The position numbers and the translations under genes were made by a program. Positions 42,730 through 46,497 of a stretch of 64,000 nucleotides of DNA are shown here, piece by piece. The notes below the pieces were generated by a model. The model worked only from the letters and a program-made list of their open reading frames with translations, did not search any database and was not told where the DNA came from. Positions within the stretch are counted from its first letter, which is position 1, and each line of letters starts with the position of its first letter. The stretch lies in IMG/VR virus record IMGVR_UViG_2706796071_000001. One strand, written 5' to 3'. This DNA comes from a virus. Taxonomy: Duplodnaviria > Heunggongvirae > Uroviricota > Caudoviricetes > Herelleviridae.

Positions 42730-43362
42730 ATGGCTAAAAAGAATGTTAATGATGTATTACAACAAGAATCTGTTACAGTAGCAGATAAGTATTTACAAGT
42801 TAAAGTTAACCGTGACGGTTATACTCGTACACATGAAGGACAATATGCGTACAAAGTAGTTTCAGAGGGAGAAGAATTATTCTTATATCCTGTACAAACA
42901 GATGGTAAAGGTACACTAAATGTAATGAAGAAATCACCTATTGCTTACACTGATGGAGACAATATCCATTTTGTAGTAAACACAGTAGTAGACCCTTATA
43001 ATCACTCATTTATCCGTACTGAAGATATTAAAGGATTAGATAAAGGTAAACAACTTATTCAAGCTTTCTTAGCTTTCGTTGAAGACCGTTTCAAATTTGG
43101 TGTTTATAACGTATTTGTTGCAAACAACAAAGAGGATGTATTATCTATTGTAGACCCTACAGATAATGATGCAGATGAAGTTAAAGATAGTTTAGAGCAC
43201 GCACATGAAGATGTAATTGCGGATTTCCCTGCTAGCCCTGCTCGTAAGGACGTTAAAGGCGTAGATTCAGGAGAAGGTCAAGGAGACACTTCAGAACCAT
43301 CAGCACCTAAGAACGTTCAAATTACTCCTAAGGAAGACGGAGCAGACGTATCAGCAGAATAA
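42730..43362 (+). CDS. Virion-associated protein (210 aa) ending in FN3 A/B-strand-like peptide
   Basis: Behind late promoter; C-terminus EPSAPKNVQITPKEDGADVSAE. Confidence 0.7.
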   Translation: MAKKNVNDVLQQESVTVADKYLQVKVNRDGYTRTHEGQYAYKVVSEGEELFLYPVQTDGKGTLNVMKKSPIAYTDGDNIHFVVNTVVDPYNHSFIRTEDIKGLDKGKQLIQAFLAFVEDRFKFGVYNVFVANNKEDVLSIVDPTDNDADEVKDSLEHAHEDVIADFPASPARKDVKGVDSGEGQGDTSEPSAPKNVQITPKEDGADVSAE

Positions 43363-43384
43363 TATATAGATAAGGATGGTAAAT

Positions 43385-43897
43385 TTGGCTAAGTTAAATT
43401 TATACAAAGGTAATGAGTTACTAAACAGCGTAGAAAAAACAGAAGGAAAATCAACAATCACGATTGAGAATTTAGATGCTAATACGGATTACCCTAAAGG
43501 TACTTTTAAAGTATCATTCTCAAATGATTCAGGAGAGTCAGAGAAGGTCGATGTTCCTCAGTTTAAGACAAAAGCAATTAAAGTTATTTCAGTTACCCTT
43601 GACGTTGATAGTTTAGACCTTACAGTTGGAGATACTCACCAACTATCAACAACTATCACGCCTAGTGAAGCATCTAACAAAAATGTGTCATTTGAATCAG
43701 ACAAATCAGGTGTTGCTAGCGTAACATCAGAAGGCTTAATTGAAGCAGTTAGTGCAGGAACAGCTAATGTTACTGTAACTACTGAAGATGGTAGTCACAC
43801 TGATATTGTTGCTGTAACAGTTAAGGAACCTATTCCTGAAGCACCTGCAGACGTAACAGTTGAACCTGGTGAAAATAGCGCAGATATTACTGTATAG
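43385..43897 (+). CDS. Ig-like (Big_2) tail/virion protein (170 aa, TTG start)
   Basis: Big_2 motif SVTLD...LTVGDTHQLSTTITPSEASNKNVSFESD...ASVTSEGLIEAVSAGTANVTVTTEDG; N-terminal partial FN3. Confidence 0.85.
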   Translation: MAKLNLYKGNELLNSVEKTEGKSTITIENLDANTDYPKGTFKVSFSNDSGESEKVDVPQFKTKAIKVISVTLDVDSLDLTVGDTHQLSTTITPSEASNKNVSFESDKSGVASVTSEGLIEAVSAGTANVTVTTEDGSHTDIVAVTVKEPIPEAPADVTVEPGENSADITV

Positions 43898-43911
43898 GAG
43901 GACAATAAAGA

Positions 43912-44139
43912 ATGGAAAAGACATTAAAAGTTTATAGTAATGGTGAAGTTGTGGGCTCTCAAGTAGCTAATAACGATGGAGCTACTACAGTATCTATTAC
44001 GGGCTTAGAAGCCGGAAAAACTTATGCTAAAGGAGATTTTAAAGTAGCATTTGCTAATGATTCAGGTGAATCAGAAAAAGTAGATGTTCCTGAATTTACA
44101 ACTAAAACTCCTACTGAAGAACCTTCAGGAGACGCATAA
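43912..44139 (+). CDS. Partial FN3-like virion protein (75 aa), paralog of the preceding ORF's N-terminus
   Basis: Shares FKV.F.NDSGESEKVDVP.F.TK; AGGAGG RBS. Confidence 0.8.
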   Translation: MEKTLKVYSNGEVVGSQVANNDGATTVSITGLEAGKTYAKGDFKVAFANDSGESEKVDVPEFTTKTPTEEPSGDA

Positions 44140-44144
44140 TAATT

Positions 44145-44203
44145 AAGACCAACTAAAAAGTTGGTCTTTTTTTATTGACAATTTATAATATCTATGATAC
44201 ACT
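44145..44203 (+). promoter_or_regulatory. Terminator followed by sigmaA promoter
   Basis: AAGACCAACT/AGTTGGTCTT stem, T-tract, TTGACA(44175)-17bp-TACACT. Confidence 0.8.
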
Positions 44204-44498: not shown

Positions 44499-45254
44499 AT
44501 GGGAATTATAGTAAACTCCAACCATATTCAATCAGACACTTTATATGAGTATGATAGCTTTTTTGATATTGAGAAAGTAGATACATTTGAAGAAGGATTG
44601 CTTTCAATACAGGATGAGCCAACTGTTTTAGCAGGATTCATCTATGATGATATCACATTTAATAAGGTCATTAATTCTAATTCAGATATTGATGACTATA
44701 TTAAGAATAATGATATTTATTATGTCTCTGATATAGGATTACTTCCTGATACTTTTATCACTGTTGATTCTGATAGAAAATATTATTCATTATTACAACA
44801 GATAACTGAGTTAAGTAAAGACCCTTTTCCTAAATGGGTAGAGGATGATGCAAAAGGTTTAACTAAGTATTATAACTTTCAAGATTTTGAAGATGTATTT
44901 GATTTAAATAGTTTTTACAAAAAAGAAGTTGACATGGTAAGAGAAAAGTGCTATAATAATGGTAATGTATATTTATTATATGAGGTTCTGCCTGATTATA
45001 AATTACCTCTAGCTTATAGTTTACTTTCAAACAAGGAGCATGGTATTGTTATTATCGGTTCACAGACACGTTCTAATAATGATATACTGACTTTTTATGT
45101 TAAAGGTATGGATGCTAAGGCAATAGCTAGTATGTTCAATGTAGAACATGATTATGATTCTAATATTTTCCATACATTTGTAAACAGTCACATTAATATT
45201 TTAGGAAATCAAATAACTAAGTTTATAAGAGAGAAAGGAAGCAGTTATGAGTAA
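44499..45254 (+). CDS. Hypothetical protein (251 aa)
   Basis: Long ORF, phage-like composition, synteny. Confidence 0.75.
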   Translation: MGIIVNSNHIQSDTLYEYDSFFDIEKVDTFEEGLLSIQDEPTVLAGFIYDDITFNKVINSNSDIDDYIKNNDIYYVSDIGLLPDTFITVDSDRKYYSLLQQITELSKDPFPKWVEDDAKGLTKYYNFQDFEDVFDLNSFYKKEVDMVREKCYNNGNVYLLYEVLPDYKLPLAYSLLSNKEHGIVIIGSQTRSNNDILTFYVKGMDAKAIASMFNVEHDYDSNIFHTFVNSHINILGNQITKFIREKGSSYE

Positions 45255-46497
45255 CTATAAAACAATAGAAGAAGTACAAGCAGTTATTATTGGGGTATTA
45301 TTTAAAGATGAAGGTAAAATTATAACATCTAAGTTTAATAAAATTACTAAAGAGTTTGGTTTAGATAGAATCGGTAAAGATGACCTTAAAGAAATTGTAG
45401 AGGATATCCGACAAGACGCTTATCTAAATGAACTTAAAAACAAAGCAATTAAAGGTAAAGTAACGTTAGGTGATTTAAAAGATGTTGCAGATAACCAAGT
45501 ATTCGAAGGTAATAACTACCATGAAGAAGTATCTACTTATGTAGTAGCTAAAGAAAAAGAATTGTCTCACTTAAGAGAACAGCGTAAGCACAATAGGCAT
45601 ACTGCATACCCTCAAATTATGTTTGATGAACTTAAAGAACATATGGTTAAGGAATTACAAGGGGAAACATTAGTAGAACATCACGGAAGTAAAGCTAATA
45701 TTAATGATACAGAGCTAATTGTGTTACTATCAGATTTCCATATTGGAAGTATTGTATCTGATATGACTAATGGTAAATATGATTTTGAAGTTCTTAAAGC
45801 AAGATTAAATCATTTTATTAATACAACAGTTAAAGAAATTGAAGATAGAGAAATTTCTAATGTAACTGTTTACTTTGTTGGGGACTTAGTAGAACATATT
45901 AATATGAGAGATGTTAACCAAGCATTTGAAACAGAGTTTACTTTAGCAGAACAAATCTCTAAAGGTACTCGATTACTTATTGATATCCTGAATGTACTAT
46001 CTAATGTAGTTTCCGGAGAACTAAGATTTGGTATTATTGGTGGTAACCATGACCGTATGCAAGGTAACAAGAATCAGAAGATTTATAATGATAACATTGC
46101 TTATGTAGTGTTAGATTCTTTATTGTTATTCCAAGAACAAGGACTATTAAATGGTGTAGATATTATTGATAATCGTGAAGATATTTATACTATTAGAGAT
46201 ACCTTTGGCGGTAAATCTATTATCATTAACCACGGAGATGGGTTAAAAGGTAAAGGTAATCATATCAATAAATTTATCTTAGATAGTCATATTGACTTAT
46301 TAATTACAGGTCATGTACATCATTTCTCAGTAAAACAAGAAGATTTTAATAGAATGCACATCGTAGCTTCATCTCCGATGGGATATAATAACTATGCTAA
46401 AGAGTTACATTTATCAAAAACTAAACCTTCACAGCAGTTATTATTCATAAATAAGGAAAATAAAGATATTGATATTAAAACAGTATTTTTAGATTAA
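45247..46497 (+). CDS. Calcineurin-like metallophosphoesterase
   Basis: DFHIG, GDLVE, GNHDR, HGD, GHVH motifs. Confidence 0.85.
   Translation: MSNYKTIEEVQAVIIGVLFKDEGKIITSKFNKITKEFGLDRIGKDDLKEIVEDIRQDAYLNELKNKAIKGKVTLGDLKDVADNQVFEGNNYHEEVSTYVVAKEKELSHLREQRKHNRHTAYPQIMFDELKEHMVKELQGETLVEHHGSKANINDTELIVLLSDFHIGSIVSDMTNGKYDFEVLKARLNHFINTTVKEIEDREISNVTVYFVGDLVEHINMRDVNQAFETEFTLAEQISKGTRLLIDILNVLSNVVSGELRFGIIGGNHDRMQGNKNQKIYNDNIAYVVLDSLLLFQEQGLLNGVDIIDNREDIYTIRDTFGGKSIIINHGDGLKGKGNHINKFILDSHIDLLITGHVHHFSVKQEDFNRMHIVASSPMGYNNYAKELHLSKTKPSQQLLFINKENKDIDIKTVFLD

What the first reader, a model, noticed from the sequence alone, without database searches (positions are those of the whole stretch)
42730..44139. 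FN3-like domains split across three genes: candidate strand-complementation chain on the virion
Seen: ORF A (210 aa) ends EPSAPKNVQITPKEDGADVSAE and ORF B (170 aa) ends EAPADVTVEPGENSADITV; both read as FN3 strands A-B only. ORF B begins LNLYKGNEL...TITIENLDANTDYPKGTFKVSFSNDSGESEKVDVPQFKT and ORF C (75 aa) is LKVYSNGEV...TVSITGLEAGKTYAKGDFKVAFANDSGESEKVDVPEFTT; both read as FN3 strands C-G only. So A is donor-only, B is acceptor + Big_2 + donor, and C is acceptor-only. Each has its own RBS, and in-frame stops (43367, 43906) block simple frameshift fusion of the kind known for SPP1 gp17.1*. Inference: the proteins assemble in trans, A(anchor)-B(n)-C(cap), like donor-strand exchange in pili. This would give a variable-length Ig-like filament whose length is set by the B:C ratio. 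I know of no description of this in phages.
Basis: partly seen in the sequence, partly recalled or inferred. Interest (0 to 1): 0.85.

Follow-up and report, generated by a model that had tools for sequence, protein, structure and literature searches.

The report
Split FN3 domain links capsid proteins
Three neighbouring genes of this Staphylococcus phage K-type virus each encode part of one small fibronectin-type fold, and the separately made proteins most likely clip together on the capsid by completing each other's fold, a little-described plug-and-socket way of hanging Ig-like proteins (and, in relatives, enzymes) on a virion.

Summary
The window is a Staphylococcus Kayvirus (phage K type). 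A (42730-43362) and B (43385-43897, TTG start) each end in a 22-residue hairpin. B begins with, and C (43912-44139) consists of, a 63-65-residue beta module. Stops close every direct route between the frames.

- **Conservation:** the cut is at the same point in four Twortvirinae genera, and also in siphophages.
- **Fold:** a homologue in which hairpin and module sit in one frame folds as a complete FN3 domain (pLDDT 86.5; Z 11).
- **Separate proteins:** published MALDI-TOF of purified virions shows A, B and C at exactly their separate masses, so they are not fused.
- **Location:** residues 2-175 of A are solved together with the major capsid protein (PDB 9ROX, 9ROZ), so A sits on the capsid. 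B and C have no anchor of their own.

Best reading (0.68): non-covalent hairpin complementation, as seen in the Tuc2009 BppU-BppA crystal structure. I could not fold the pairing directly. The variable-length A-B(n)-C filament is not supported: the phage has a third socket protein, relatives put sockets on large enzymes, and the tail sheath carries a plug-like insertion.

This scan found the same layout before on other phage DNA. I found no general description in print.

The parts
42730..43362 (+). Gene A: capsid decoration protein, 210 aa (anchor + disordered linker + plug)
   Evidence: ORF and sequence. The virion mass of 23,069 Da in phage K equals A minus Met with V for I. The N-terminal domain is conserved across Herelleviridae.
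42733..43254 (+). A residues 2-175: capsid-binding anchor domain
   Evidence: Identical stretch solved as 'Putative Ig-like protein' in PDB 9ROX and 9ROZ, 10 chains. The same two entries hold the major capsid protein, 16 chains per entry. AF2 model: residues 1-155 at pLDDT 65-89. No Foldseek PDB match at E <= 0.001.
43255..43293 (+). A residues 176-188: acidic, Gly/Ser-rich flexible linker (the disordered stretch begins near residue 161)
   Evidence: pLDDT below 50 for residues 161-195. Not part of the deposited PDB chain. Poorly conserved in alignment A6.
43294..43359 (+). A residues 189-210: plug 1, EPSAPKNVQITPKEDGADVSAE (FN3 strands A-B)
   Evidence: Matches plug profile A7 at E 8e-12 in the phage's own record. 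Motif P-x-x-P-x-N/D-V-x-V...A-D/E-V/I is kept in four genera. The equivalent residues 8-24 of P0100 fold as strands A and B of FN3.
43360..43384 (+). A/B junction: stops in all three frames (43360, 43367, 43371), Shine-Dalgarno AAGGA, then TTG start
   Evidence: Read. The TTG start of B is conserved in K, Twort, Romulus and BS2.
43385..43897 (+). Gene B: extender protein, 170 aa (socket + Big_2 + plug)
   Evidence: Virion mass 17,718 Da equals B170 minus Met, 17,717 Da. 96 homologues were found, and nearly all that carry the module start directly with it.
43385..43573 (+). B residues 1-63: socket 1 (FN3 strands C-G), MAKLNLYKG...SGESEKVDVPQFKTK
   Evidence: Alignment A3. Profile hit to fibronectin FN3 places it at FN3 positions ~31-90. 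Weak Pfam fn3_2 hit at profile positions 31-85 of 89.
43583..43804 (+). B residues 67-140: Big_2 bacterial Ig-like domain
   Evidence: Pfam PF02368, E 8.6e-14, above the gathering score.
43829..43894 (+). B residues 149-170: plug 2, PIPEAPADVTVEPGENSADITV (FN3 strands A-B)
   Evidence: Plug profile A7, E 5.7e-11. Conserved in 33 aligned B homologues: P151, P154, V159, E163, A166.
43895..43911 (+). B/C junction: TAG stop, AGGAGG Shine-Dalgarno, and TAA at 43906 in the C frame
   Evidence: Read.
43912..44139 (+). Gene C: cap protein, 75 aa (socket 2 = residues 1-65, 43912-44106, then the short acidic tail TPTEEPSGDA with no plug)
   Evidence: Virion mass 7,818 Da equals C with Met, 7,817 Da, with 96% peptide coverage by MS/MS. 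33 homologues. 52% identical to the B socket.
44145..44168 (+). Intrinsic terminator closing the A-B-C unit
   Evidence: 10-bp stem followed by a T run.

Best explanation
A, B and C are Ig-like decoration proteins of the capsid of a Staphylococcus Kayvirus. Most likely they are held together by a fibronectin type III (FN3) domain that is split between polypeptides.

A binds the capsid shell through its N-terminal domain. It carries about 35 disordered residues and then a 22-residue hairpin, the plug, which corresponds to FN3 strands A and B. B starts with the other five strands (the socket, C to G), continues with a Big_2 domain, and ends in a second plug. C is a socket with a short acidic tail. 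After separate translation, a plug inserts as a beta-hairpin into a socket and completes the seven-stranded sandwich without a covalent bond. This tethers B and C to A, most simply as A-C and A-B-C.

Shown: the gene anatomy and its conservation; separate polypeptides of the predicted masses in purified virions; the A anchor solved with the capsid protein; and plug + socket of a homologue predicted as one complete FN3.

Inferred: that the plugs and sockets of this phage really pair, who pairs with whom, and the stoichiometry.
For: - Same cut after strand B at both junctions, with no direct recoding route.
- The A|B|C layout, the cut point and the TTG start of B are kept in Kayvirus, Twortvirus, Silviavirus and Baoshanvirus, where A is 50-73% identical.
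- Plugs are conserved while the linker before them is not.
- P0100 residues 1-100, a natural same-frame plug + spacer + socket whose TAG was read as Q by a gene caller, folds at pLDDT 86.5 and pTM 0.76. The plug residues form strands 8-14 and 18-24, and only the spacer is disordered.
- All top structural matches to that model are FN3 domains over residues 1-99, Z 10-11, including titin 2NZI.
- The socket profile aligns to the C-terminal two thirds of fibronectin FN3 modules.
- MALDI-TOF of CsCl-purified K, 812 and K1/420 virions gives 23,069, 17,718 and 7,818 Da. These equal A, B and C as separate chains. B and C have no anchor domain, yet they stay on the virion.
- The same holds for the 15,871-Da socket protein of Triavirus phages and for the Twort C homologue at 7,638 Da.
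- A residues 2-175 sit in PDB 9ROX and 9ROZ together with the capsid protein. The deposited A chain stops at residue 175, so the linker and plug are absent from it, and B and C have no PDB entry.
- Phage vB_SauH-Ge has deleted B by recombination between the two sockets. It keeps A plus one socket protein, as a modular system allows.
- Crystal precedent: the Tuc2009 BppU hairpin 296-321 completes BppA domain 2, and the composite resembles titin 2NZI.
Against: - No direct test of pairing for this phage's own sequences.
- The fold test used a homologue only 49% identical to the B socket, with plug and socket joined in cis.
- Pfam FN3 hits are all below threshold, even for read-through constructs.
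- In the A model alone the plug is a low-confidence hairpin, pLDDT about 49.
- MALDI shows presence in virions, not contacts.
- The paper behind 9ROX and 9ROZ was not found, so I do not know whether extra density was seen.
- Sequence similarity to the Tuc2009 acceptor is not significant (E 0.25).
Confidence: 0.68

Rival explanations
1. One reading: B polymerises head to tail, giving A-B(n)-C filaments of variable length set by the B:C ratio.
For: B has both a socket and a plug. The A and B plugs are nearly interchangeable in Twort (77% identical) and Romulus (71%), which suggests promiscuous pairing, so a B plug could enter a B socket. At least 12 of 94 socket-family representatives also end in a plug.
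Against: B starts with TTG in all four genera, while A and C use ATG and C has the strongest Shine-Dalgarno. This points to less B than cap. B sockets and C sockets form separate orthologous groups (58-75% identical within B against 38-61% between B and C), which fits fixed partners as well. A third socket protein also competes for plugs. No ladder or filament has been reported.
Confidence: 0.15
2. The half domains do not pair with the tails. B and C bind the virion in some other way (for example through Big_2, or through the five-stranded module touching capsid or sheath directly), and the C-terminal tails are only conserved linkers or relics of a once continuous gene.
For: No contact has been shown for this phage. 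Pfam does not call FN3. The plug of A is predicted with low confidence on its own.
Against: A relic would not keep the same cut point, the plug motif and separate starts across four genera and in unrelated siphophages. C has nothing but the socket, yet it is a prominent virion protein. The plug fills exactly the missing strands in the fold model. The Tuc2009 structure shows this pairing physically.
Confidence: 0.12
3. B closes on itself: its own C-terminal plug fills its own N-terminal socket, so only A-C or A-B pairs exist and no chain forms.
For: It was not tested here.
Against: This is inference from fold geometry. In FN3 and Big_2 the N and C termini lie at opposite ends, and socket and Big_2 are joined without a linker (...FKTKAIKVISV...). 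Only about 8 residues (KEPIPEAP) lie between Big_2 and the plug, too few to reach back about 7 nm. A self-closed B would also have no way to stay on the virion, yet it is there.
Confidence: 0.08
4. Recoding (frameshift, readthrough or hopping) fuses A-B-C into one chain in a fraction of products.
For: Frameshift-added Ig-like domains are well known in phages. Related siphophages have +1 shift-like sites that add the plug itself.
Against: Stops in all three frames lie within 12 nt at the A/B junction, and the B/C junction would need two events. The unfused masses are what is seen in virions. No slippery heptamer is present.
Confidence: 0.03

Closest known systems
Lactococcus phage Tuc2009 baseplate tripod: BppU C-terminal hairpin with BppA domain 2 (PDB 5E7T; Legrand et al. 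2016, PMC4742702)
   Same: A C-terminal beta-hairpin of about 25 residues on one virion protein completes a sheet of a partial beta-sandwich of about 57 residues in another. The authors found the composite most like titin 2NZI. That same titin entry is among the top matches of the composite modelled here. Sizes match: plugs of 22-25 residues, sockets of 60-65.
   Different: In Tuc2009 the acceptor is at the C terminus of BppA and the site is the baseplate. Here sockets are at the very N terminus, the site is the capsid, and one protein (B) has both socket and plug, so joints can be chained. Sequence similarity is not significant (E 0.25). The paper did not describe it as a split FN3 family.
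Ig-like or FN3 domains added in cis to phage structural proteins, often by programmed frameshift
   Same: The outcome is the same: Ig-like domains displayed on capsid or tail in sub-stoichiometric or flexible form. In related siphophages the plug itself appears to be added by a +1 shift at CCC-NNN-stop.
   Different: There the whole domain is part of one chain. Here the domain is divided between chains, and no recoding is possible at these junctions.
Anchor + Big_2 decoration proteins of other Herelleviridae (Listeria P100 gp77, Enterococcus EFDG1 398-aa protein, Staphylococcus phages Alsa_4 and PG-2021_14)
   Same: Homologous N-terminal anchor (32-45% identical), the same genome position after the late sigma factor gene, and Ig-like domains displayed from it.
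   Different: Their Big_2 domains are fused to the anchor in cis, with no plug and no B- or C-type genes beside them. P100, EFDG1 and Bacillus phage Goe3 have no socket anywhere in the genome.
Donor-strand complementation and exchange in chaperone-usher pili (textbook knowledge)
   Same: An incomplete Ig-like fold in one subunit is completed by strands from the next, which allows head-to-tail chains with a cap.
   Different: Pili donate one N-terminal strand and need a periplasmic chaperone and an usher. Here two C-terminal strands (a hairpin) are donated, in the cytoplasm, and no chaperone gene is evident. The two are not homologous.
T4 Hoc and other Hoc-like capsid fibres
   Same: Strings of Ig-like domains tethered to the capsid surface by a capsid-binding domain. 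A Hoc-like protein (7X30) is among the Big_2 matches of B.
   Different: Hoc is a single polypeptide.

Membership tests
Fibronectin type III domain (split across two chains) | Sequence match to Pfam fn3 models above the gathering score | tested here: not met
   fn3 and fn3_2 hits reach only E 0.02-0.09 and 13-16 bits against cut-offs of 25-27, for B, C and the read-through constructs.
Fibronectin type III domain (split across two chains) | Socket aligns to strands C-G and lacks the first ~30 residues of the fold | tested here: met
   Profile A3 against PDB sequences hits fibronectin 1FNF at E 1.7e-4. Profile positions 23-56 align to residues 53-86 of the 94-residue FN3-10 module.
Fibronectin type III domain (split across two chains) | Plug + socket together form the seven-stranded FN3 sandwich | tested here: met
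   For a homologue only: P0100 residues 1-100 give pLDDT 86.5 and match FN3 structures at Z 10-11, rmsd 2.0-2.4 A, over residues 1-99. This was not tested on the window's own pairs.
Big_2 bacterial Ig-like domain (PF02368) | Pfam match above the gathering score | tested here: met
   B residues 70-143 (173-aa numbering), E 8.6e-14, 51.7 bits against a cut-off of 22.8.
Tuc2009-type hairpin complementation (BppU-BppA) | C-terminal hairpin of ~25 residues on the donor, and a partial sandwich of ~57 residues on the acceptor | tested here: met
   Plugs are 22 residues at the C termini of A and B; sockets are 63-65 residues. The paper's figures are 25 and 57 residues.
Tuc2009-type hairpin complementation (BppU-BppA) | Physical insertion of the hairpin into the partner's sheet | not testable with these tools
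It needs binding assays or a structure.
Tuc2009-type hairpin complementation (BppU-BppA) | Sequence homology to BppA domain 2 | tested here: inconclusive
   5e7t_B is hit at E 0.25, profile positions 26-65 against residues 247-283.
Frameshift-appended Ig-like domain (SPP1 gp17.1* type) | An overlapping open frame reachable by one -1 or +1 shift before the stop | tested here: not met
   Stops at 43360, 43367 and 43371 close all frames at the A/B junction. TAG 43895 and TAA 43906 block the B/C junction. Unfused masses are seen in virions.
Chaperone-usher donor-strand exchange | Single N-terminal donor strand, periplasmic chaperone and usher | tested here: not met
   The donor is a C-terminal two-strand hairpin. 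The neighbouring ORFs scanned against Pfam match only DUF7329 and, weakly, a metallophosphatase.
Herelleviridae capsid decoration protein (anchor family of A) | Homologous N-terminal domain, found on the capsid | tested here: met
   Anchor aligned across Staphylococcus, Listeria, Enterococcus and Bacillus phages. Residues 2-175 are in PDB 9ROX and 9ROZ, which also hold the major capsid protein.

The most novel reading that the evidence does not exclude
The split FN3 is a general, exchangeable docking system of phages of Firmicutes, not just a three-gene curiosity.

Plugs sit on the capsid decoration protein, on extender proteins, on frameshift-extended capsid and tail-tube proteins of siphophages, and possibly as an internal hairpin inserted in the contractile sheath of Staphylococcus Twortvirinae.

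Sockets sit at the N termini of very different cargo: small caps, Big_2 strings, a collagen-stalked GH20 hexosaminidase, and proteins of 1,000-1,700 residues.

If so, enzymes and adhesins would be hung non-covalently on heads and tails and swapped by simple gene exchange.
Probability: 0.4. Interest if true: 0.82.

Novelty: new variant of a known kind. Interest (0 to 1): 0.66.

Why it matters
Kayviruses are the main therapeutic phages against Staphylococcus aureus, so their surface proteins matter. Those proteins bear on adsorption to biofilm or mucus, on immune recognition, and on stability.

If the plug-and-socket reading holds, three things follow.
- It explains how proteins with no anchor stay on the particle.
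- It explains why so many phage genomes have small 'major tail protein' or 'Ig-like' ORFs that begin in the middle of a fold.
- It offers a natural 22-residue tag and 60-residue catcher pair for displaying cargo on phage particles without fusing it to a capsid gene.

It would also generalise a single crystallographic observation (Tuc2009) into a family. A profile search of 1.84 billion proteins (one representative per 50%-identity cluster) found 454 proteins at E <= 0.001. Of the top hits re-scored, 94 of 134 carry the module at their extreme N terminus.

Tried and rejected
- **Complex prediction.** The pairing of this phage's own plug and socket remains untested.
- **Pfam on read-through constructs.** A-tail + B-head (P0135) and B-tail + C (P0136), made with hand-set codes, gave only sub-threshold Ig-like hits. 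The Big_6 match did extend from profile positions 26-60 to 2-60 when the plug was added, at E 0.0075. This is suggestive, not significant.
- **Looking for an unsplit relative.**
  - A search of longer proteins with the B socket found nothing at E <= 0.01, which is weak evidence.
  - The one apparently unsplit hit, P0100, is a gene call that read TAG as Q.
  - The 40 re-scored representatives without an N-terminal socket were not examined one by one; the hit table shows many as long proteins with several matched stretches.
- **Foldseek of the A model against PDB.** No match at E <= 0.001. The copy ends on 2026-04-08 and did not return 9ROX, so I could not read the entry title. I inferred capsid location instead from shared PDB entry codes.
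- **Literature.**
  - No paper was found for 9ROX or 9ROZ, and none describes a split FN3 in phages.
  - The phage 812 neck paper's gp164 stopper decoration protein is 152 aa, so it is not A, B or C.
  - Its held supplements gave no hits for these proteins.
  - The 2016 phi812 paper is not held.
- **Hopping or readthrough at the junctions.** Rejected by reading the sequence: no matching landing codons in frame, and several stops.
- **Plugs in PG-2021_14 and Alsa_4.** None found at E <= 1, although both genomes have sockets. This is unexplained.
Full report
**What the window is.** The 1.7 kb around the finding is 100% identical to Staphylococcus phage 355Saur083PP. It is 99-100% identical to phage K, ISP, Sb-1 and more than 100 other Kayvirus records. 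The three genes follow the UvsX-like recombinase and the late sigma factor genes. Records annotate them variously as 'Ig-like protein', 'major tail protein' or 'tail morphogenetic protein'.

**The observation.**
- A and B end in related 22-residue tails: EPSAPKNVQITPKEDGADVSAE and PIPEAPADVTVEPGENSADITV.
- B begins with a 63-residue module, and C is essentially that module at 65 residues. The two are 52% identical and share SGESEKVDVP-x-F.
- The frames are 1, 2 and 1. Stops at 43360, 43367 and 43371 close all three frames at the first junction. TAG 43895 and TAA 43906 block the second.
- B starts at TTG 43385, not ATG 43376. The 170-aa product without Met weighs 17,717 Da, the value published for virions.

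**Is it FN3?**
- Pfam alone does not say so. Big_2 in B is solid (E 8.6e-14), but all fn3 hits are below threshold, even when I read the junctions through with hand-set codes.
- A profile of 21 N-terminal modules hits fibronectin FN3 domains in the PDB (E 1.7e-4). Its positions 23-56 align to residues 53-86 of a 94-residue module, so the first ~30 residues of the fold are missing from the module.
- A database protein, P0100, turned out to be a gene call that read a TAG as Q. It therefore joins a tail, an 8-codon spacer and a module in their natural order.
- Residues 1-100 of P0100 fold at pLDDT 86.5. The tail forms strands 8-14 and 18-24, and only the spacer is disordered.
- The top 50 structural matches listed are FN3 domains aligned over residues 1-99 (Z 10-11, rmsd 2.0-2.4 A).
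- So the tail is strands A-B and the module is strands C-G. This was shown on a homologue 49% identical to the B module, not on the window's own pairs.

**Conservation.**
- Twort, Romulus (Silviavirus) and phiSA_BS2 (Baoshanvirus) have the same A|B|C order and the same cut point. All three start B with TTG, while A is only 50-73% identical.
- A Sciuriunavirus has A, B and a larger socket protein.
- Sepunaviruses keep the tail on A but encode two socket proteins elsewhere. One of them is a socket + plug of only 92 aa.
- Phage vB_SauH-Ge lost B by recombination between the two modules and keeps A plus a B/C chimera.
- Most of the 96 B homologues begin with the module within about five residues of the start; the rest are fragments or distant Big_2-only proteins.
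- An exhaustive profile search found 454 representatives at E <= 0.001. Of 134 re-scored, 94 carry the module at the extreme N terminus, in proteins of 50-1710 residues. At least 12 of those also end in a plug-like tail.
- Other Herelleviridae have the A anchor fused to intact Big_2 domains in cis and no tail: Listeria P100, Enterococcus EFDG1, and Staphylococcus phages Alsa_4 and PG-2021_14.

**The same split in siphophages.**
- In phi12 the major tail protein ends ...GSLPS. The +1 frame continues from TTA-CCC-AGC-TAA as ...LPANPQNVEVAVNSKSATVSAE.
- A separate ORF then starts MTKTLKVYKG... (module + Big_2).
- Phage 187 does the same after its major head protein. Enterococcus phage EH93P2 does it after a Big_2 protein.

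**Experimental anchors.**
- MALDI-TOF of purified virions (PMC5923470, Table 3) lists 23,069, 17,718 and 7,818 Da for K, 812 and K1/420.
- These equal A minus Met (with the K variant V for I), B170 minus Met, and C with Met.
- C was confirmed by MS/MS at 96% coverage.
- The phi12-type socket protein (15,871 Da), its tail protein (23,295 Da) and the Twort C homologue (7,638 Da) also match my computed masses.
- So the proteins are separate, unmodified chains that stay on purified particles.
- A residues 2-175 are solved as 'Putative Ig-like protein' in PDB 9ROX and 9ROZ, 10 chains.
- The mature major capsid protein is in 9ROW, 9ROX and 9ROZ: 48 chains, or 16 per entry, the T=16 asymmetric unit.
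- By inference, A is a capsid decoration protein with about 5 copies per 16 capsid subunits. Its last 35 residues are not in the deposited chain.
- B and C are in no PDB entry.
- My A model agrees: a folded anchor, then pLDDT below 50 for residues 161-195.

**Mechanism.**
- The best-supported reading is non-covalent beta-hairpin complementation. The plug of A enters a socket of B or C, and the plug of B enters another socket.
- B and C have no other means of attachment, yet they are prominent virion proteins.
- The principle is proven once in phages. In Tuc2009 the 25-residue C-terminal hairpin of BppU completes a sheet of the 57-residue BppA domain 2. The authors found the composite most like titin 2NZI, an entry that also ranks near the top for my composite model.
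- I could not test the pairing for this phage.

The system is not closed.
- The same phage encodes a third socket protein of 105 aa, outside the window.
- In phage MCE-2014 the homologous socket heads a 697-aa protein with collagen repeats and a GH20 catalytic domain.
- In Twort it heads ORF001, a 1380-residue open frame.
- The tail sheath of K-like, Romulus, Twort, C1C and BS2 phages has a 25-29-residue insertion, ...EVPSNVEVEAGEESATVTATS.... It matches the plug profile at E about 1e-4 per genome.
- That insertion is absent from P100, EFDG1, Goe3, Alsa_4 and PG-2021_14.
- Sockets may therefore dock on the tail as well as the head.
- Whether B forms polymers is open. Plugs look interchangeable in Twort and Romulus (71-77% identical), which allows it. 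But the conserved TTG start of B and the separate orthologous groups of B and C sockets fit short, defined chains better.

**Novelty.**
- Earlier agents of this scan reported the same layout in another kayvirus and in Enterococcus and Lactobacillaceae phages. One of those notes gave me the Tuc2009 lead, which I checked.
- My literature searches found no paper that describes a split FN3 family or this Kayvirus trio as such.
- I class it as a new variant of a known kind: Ig-like virion decoration combined with hairpin complementation. The new features are serial socket-plug extenders and exchangeable cargo.

Noticed in passing
outside the window: L053:1980-2036 (nearest held record, G001:C1:59479-59535); tail sheath residues ~274-296: The 587-aa tail sheath protein of Staphylococcus Twortvirinae has a 25-29-residue insertion, EVPSNVEVEAGEESATVTATS. 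It matches the plug profile at E 2e-4, 8.5e-5 and 1.2e-4 in three genera. It is present in K-like, Romulus, Twort, C1C and BS2 phages, and absent in P100, EFDG1, Goe3, Alsa_4 and PG-2021_14. It may be an internal docking hairpin for socket proteins on the tail.
   Followed up: partly
outside the window: OR062949.1 127792-128109 (L027:1489-1806): A third socket protein of 105 aa (MERTLNLYDSKGK...DVPEFTT... then ...SKLWFKPIN) lies in an unannotated gap of the window's own phage record. Homologous sockets head a 697-aa collagen-like GH20 hexosaminidase in phage MCE-2014 (L025:829-2922, minus strand) and ORF001, a 1380-residue open frame, in Twort.
   Followed up: partly
L007:1080-1190 (phi12), L008:1085-1195 (phage 187), L009:1355-1490 (Enterococcus EH93P2): The major tail protein, the major head protein and a Big_2 protein each end at CCC-NNN-stop followed by CCCCAAAA. 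The +1 frame encodes a 20-22-residue plug and is followed by a separate socket ORF, so these look like +1 frameshift sites that add the plug. The phi12-type socket protein is seen at 15,871 Da in virions.
   Followed up: partly
L001:1616-2507 (phage vB_SauH-Ge): A natural deletion of B by recombination inside the shared SGESEKVDVP stretch leaves A plus a chimeric socket: the B head with the C tail, 76 aa from the first in-frame ATG.
   Followed up: yes
window 43385; L002:3675; L016:2155; L018:2170: B starts with TTG in Kayvirus, Twortvirus, Silviavirus and Baoshanvirus, while A and C use ATG. This conserved weak start may limit the supply of the extender.
   Followed up: partly
L019 and L020 records (PG-2021_14, Alsa_4): These Twortvirinae have sockets within open frames of 1275, 575 and 445 aa. 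They have no plug on the A homologue, no sheath insertion, and no plug-profile hit at E <= 1. Their docking site is unknown.
   Followed up: no
L033:407-1243 (protein P0100): A public gene call translated with TAG=Q joins a plug and the next socket ORF into one false 278-aa protein. It is an annotation artefact that happened to be useful as a cis mimic.
   Followed up: yes
window 44499-45254 and 45247-46497: Downstream genes: a DUF7329 protein (E 5.7e-109) and a 416-aa protein with a borderline calcineurin-like phosphoesterase match (E 5e-4, just under the cut-off; annotated as an exonuclease in relatives). Both are unrelated to the finding.
   Followed up: no
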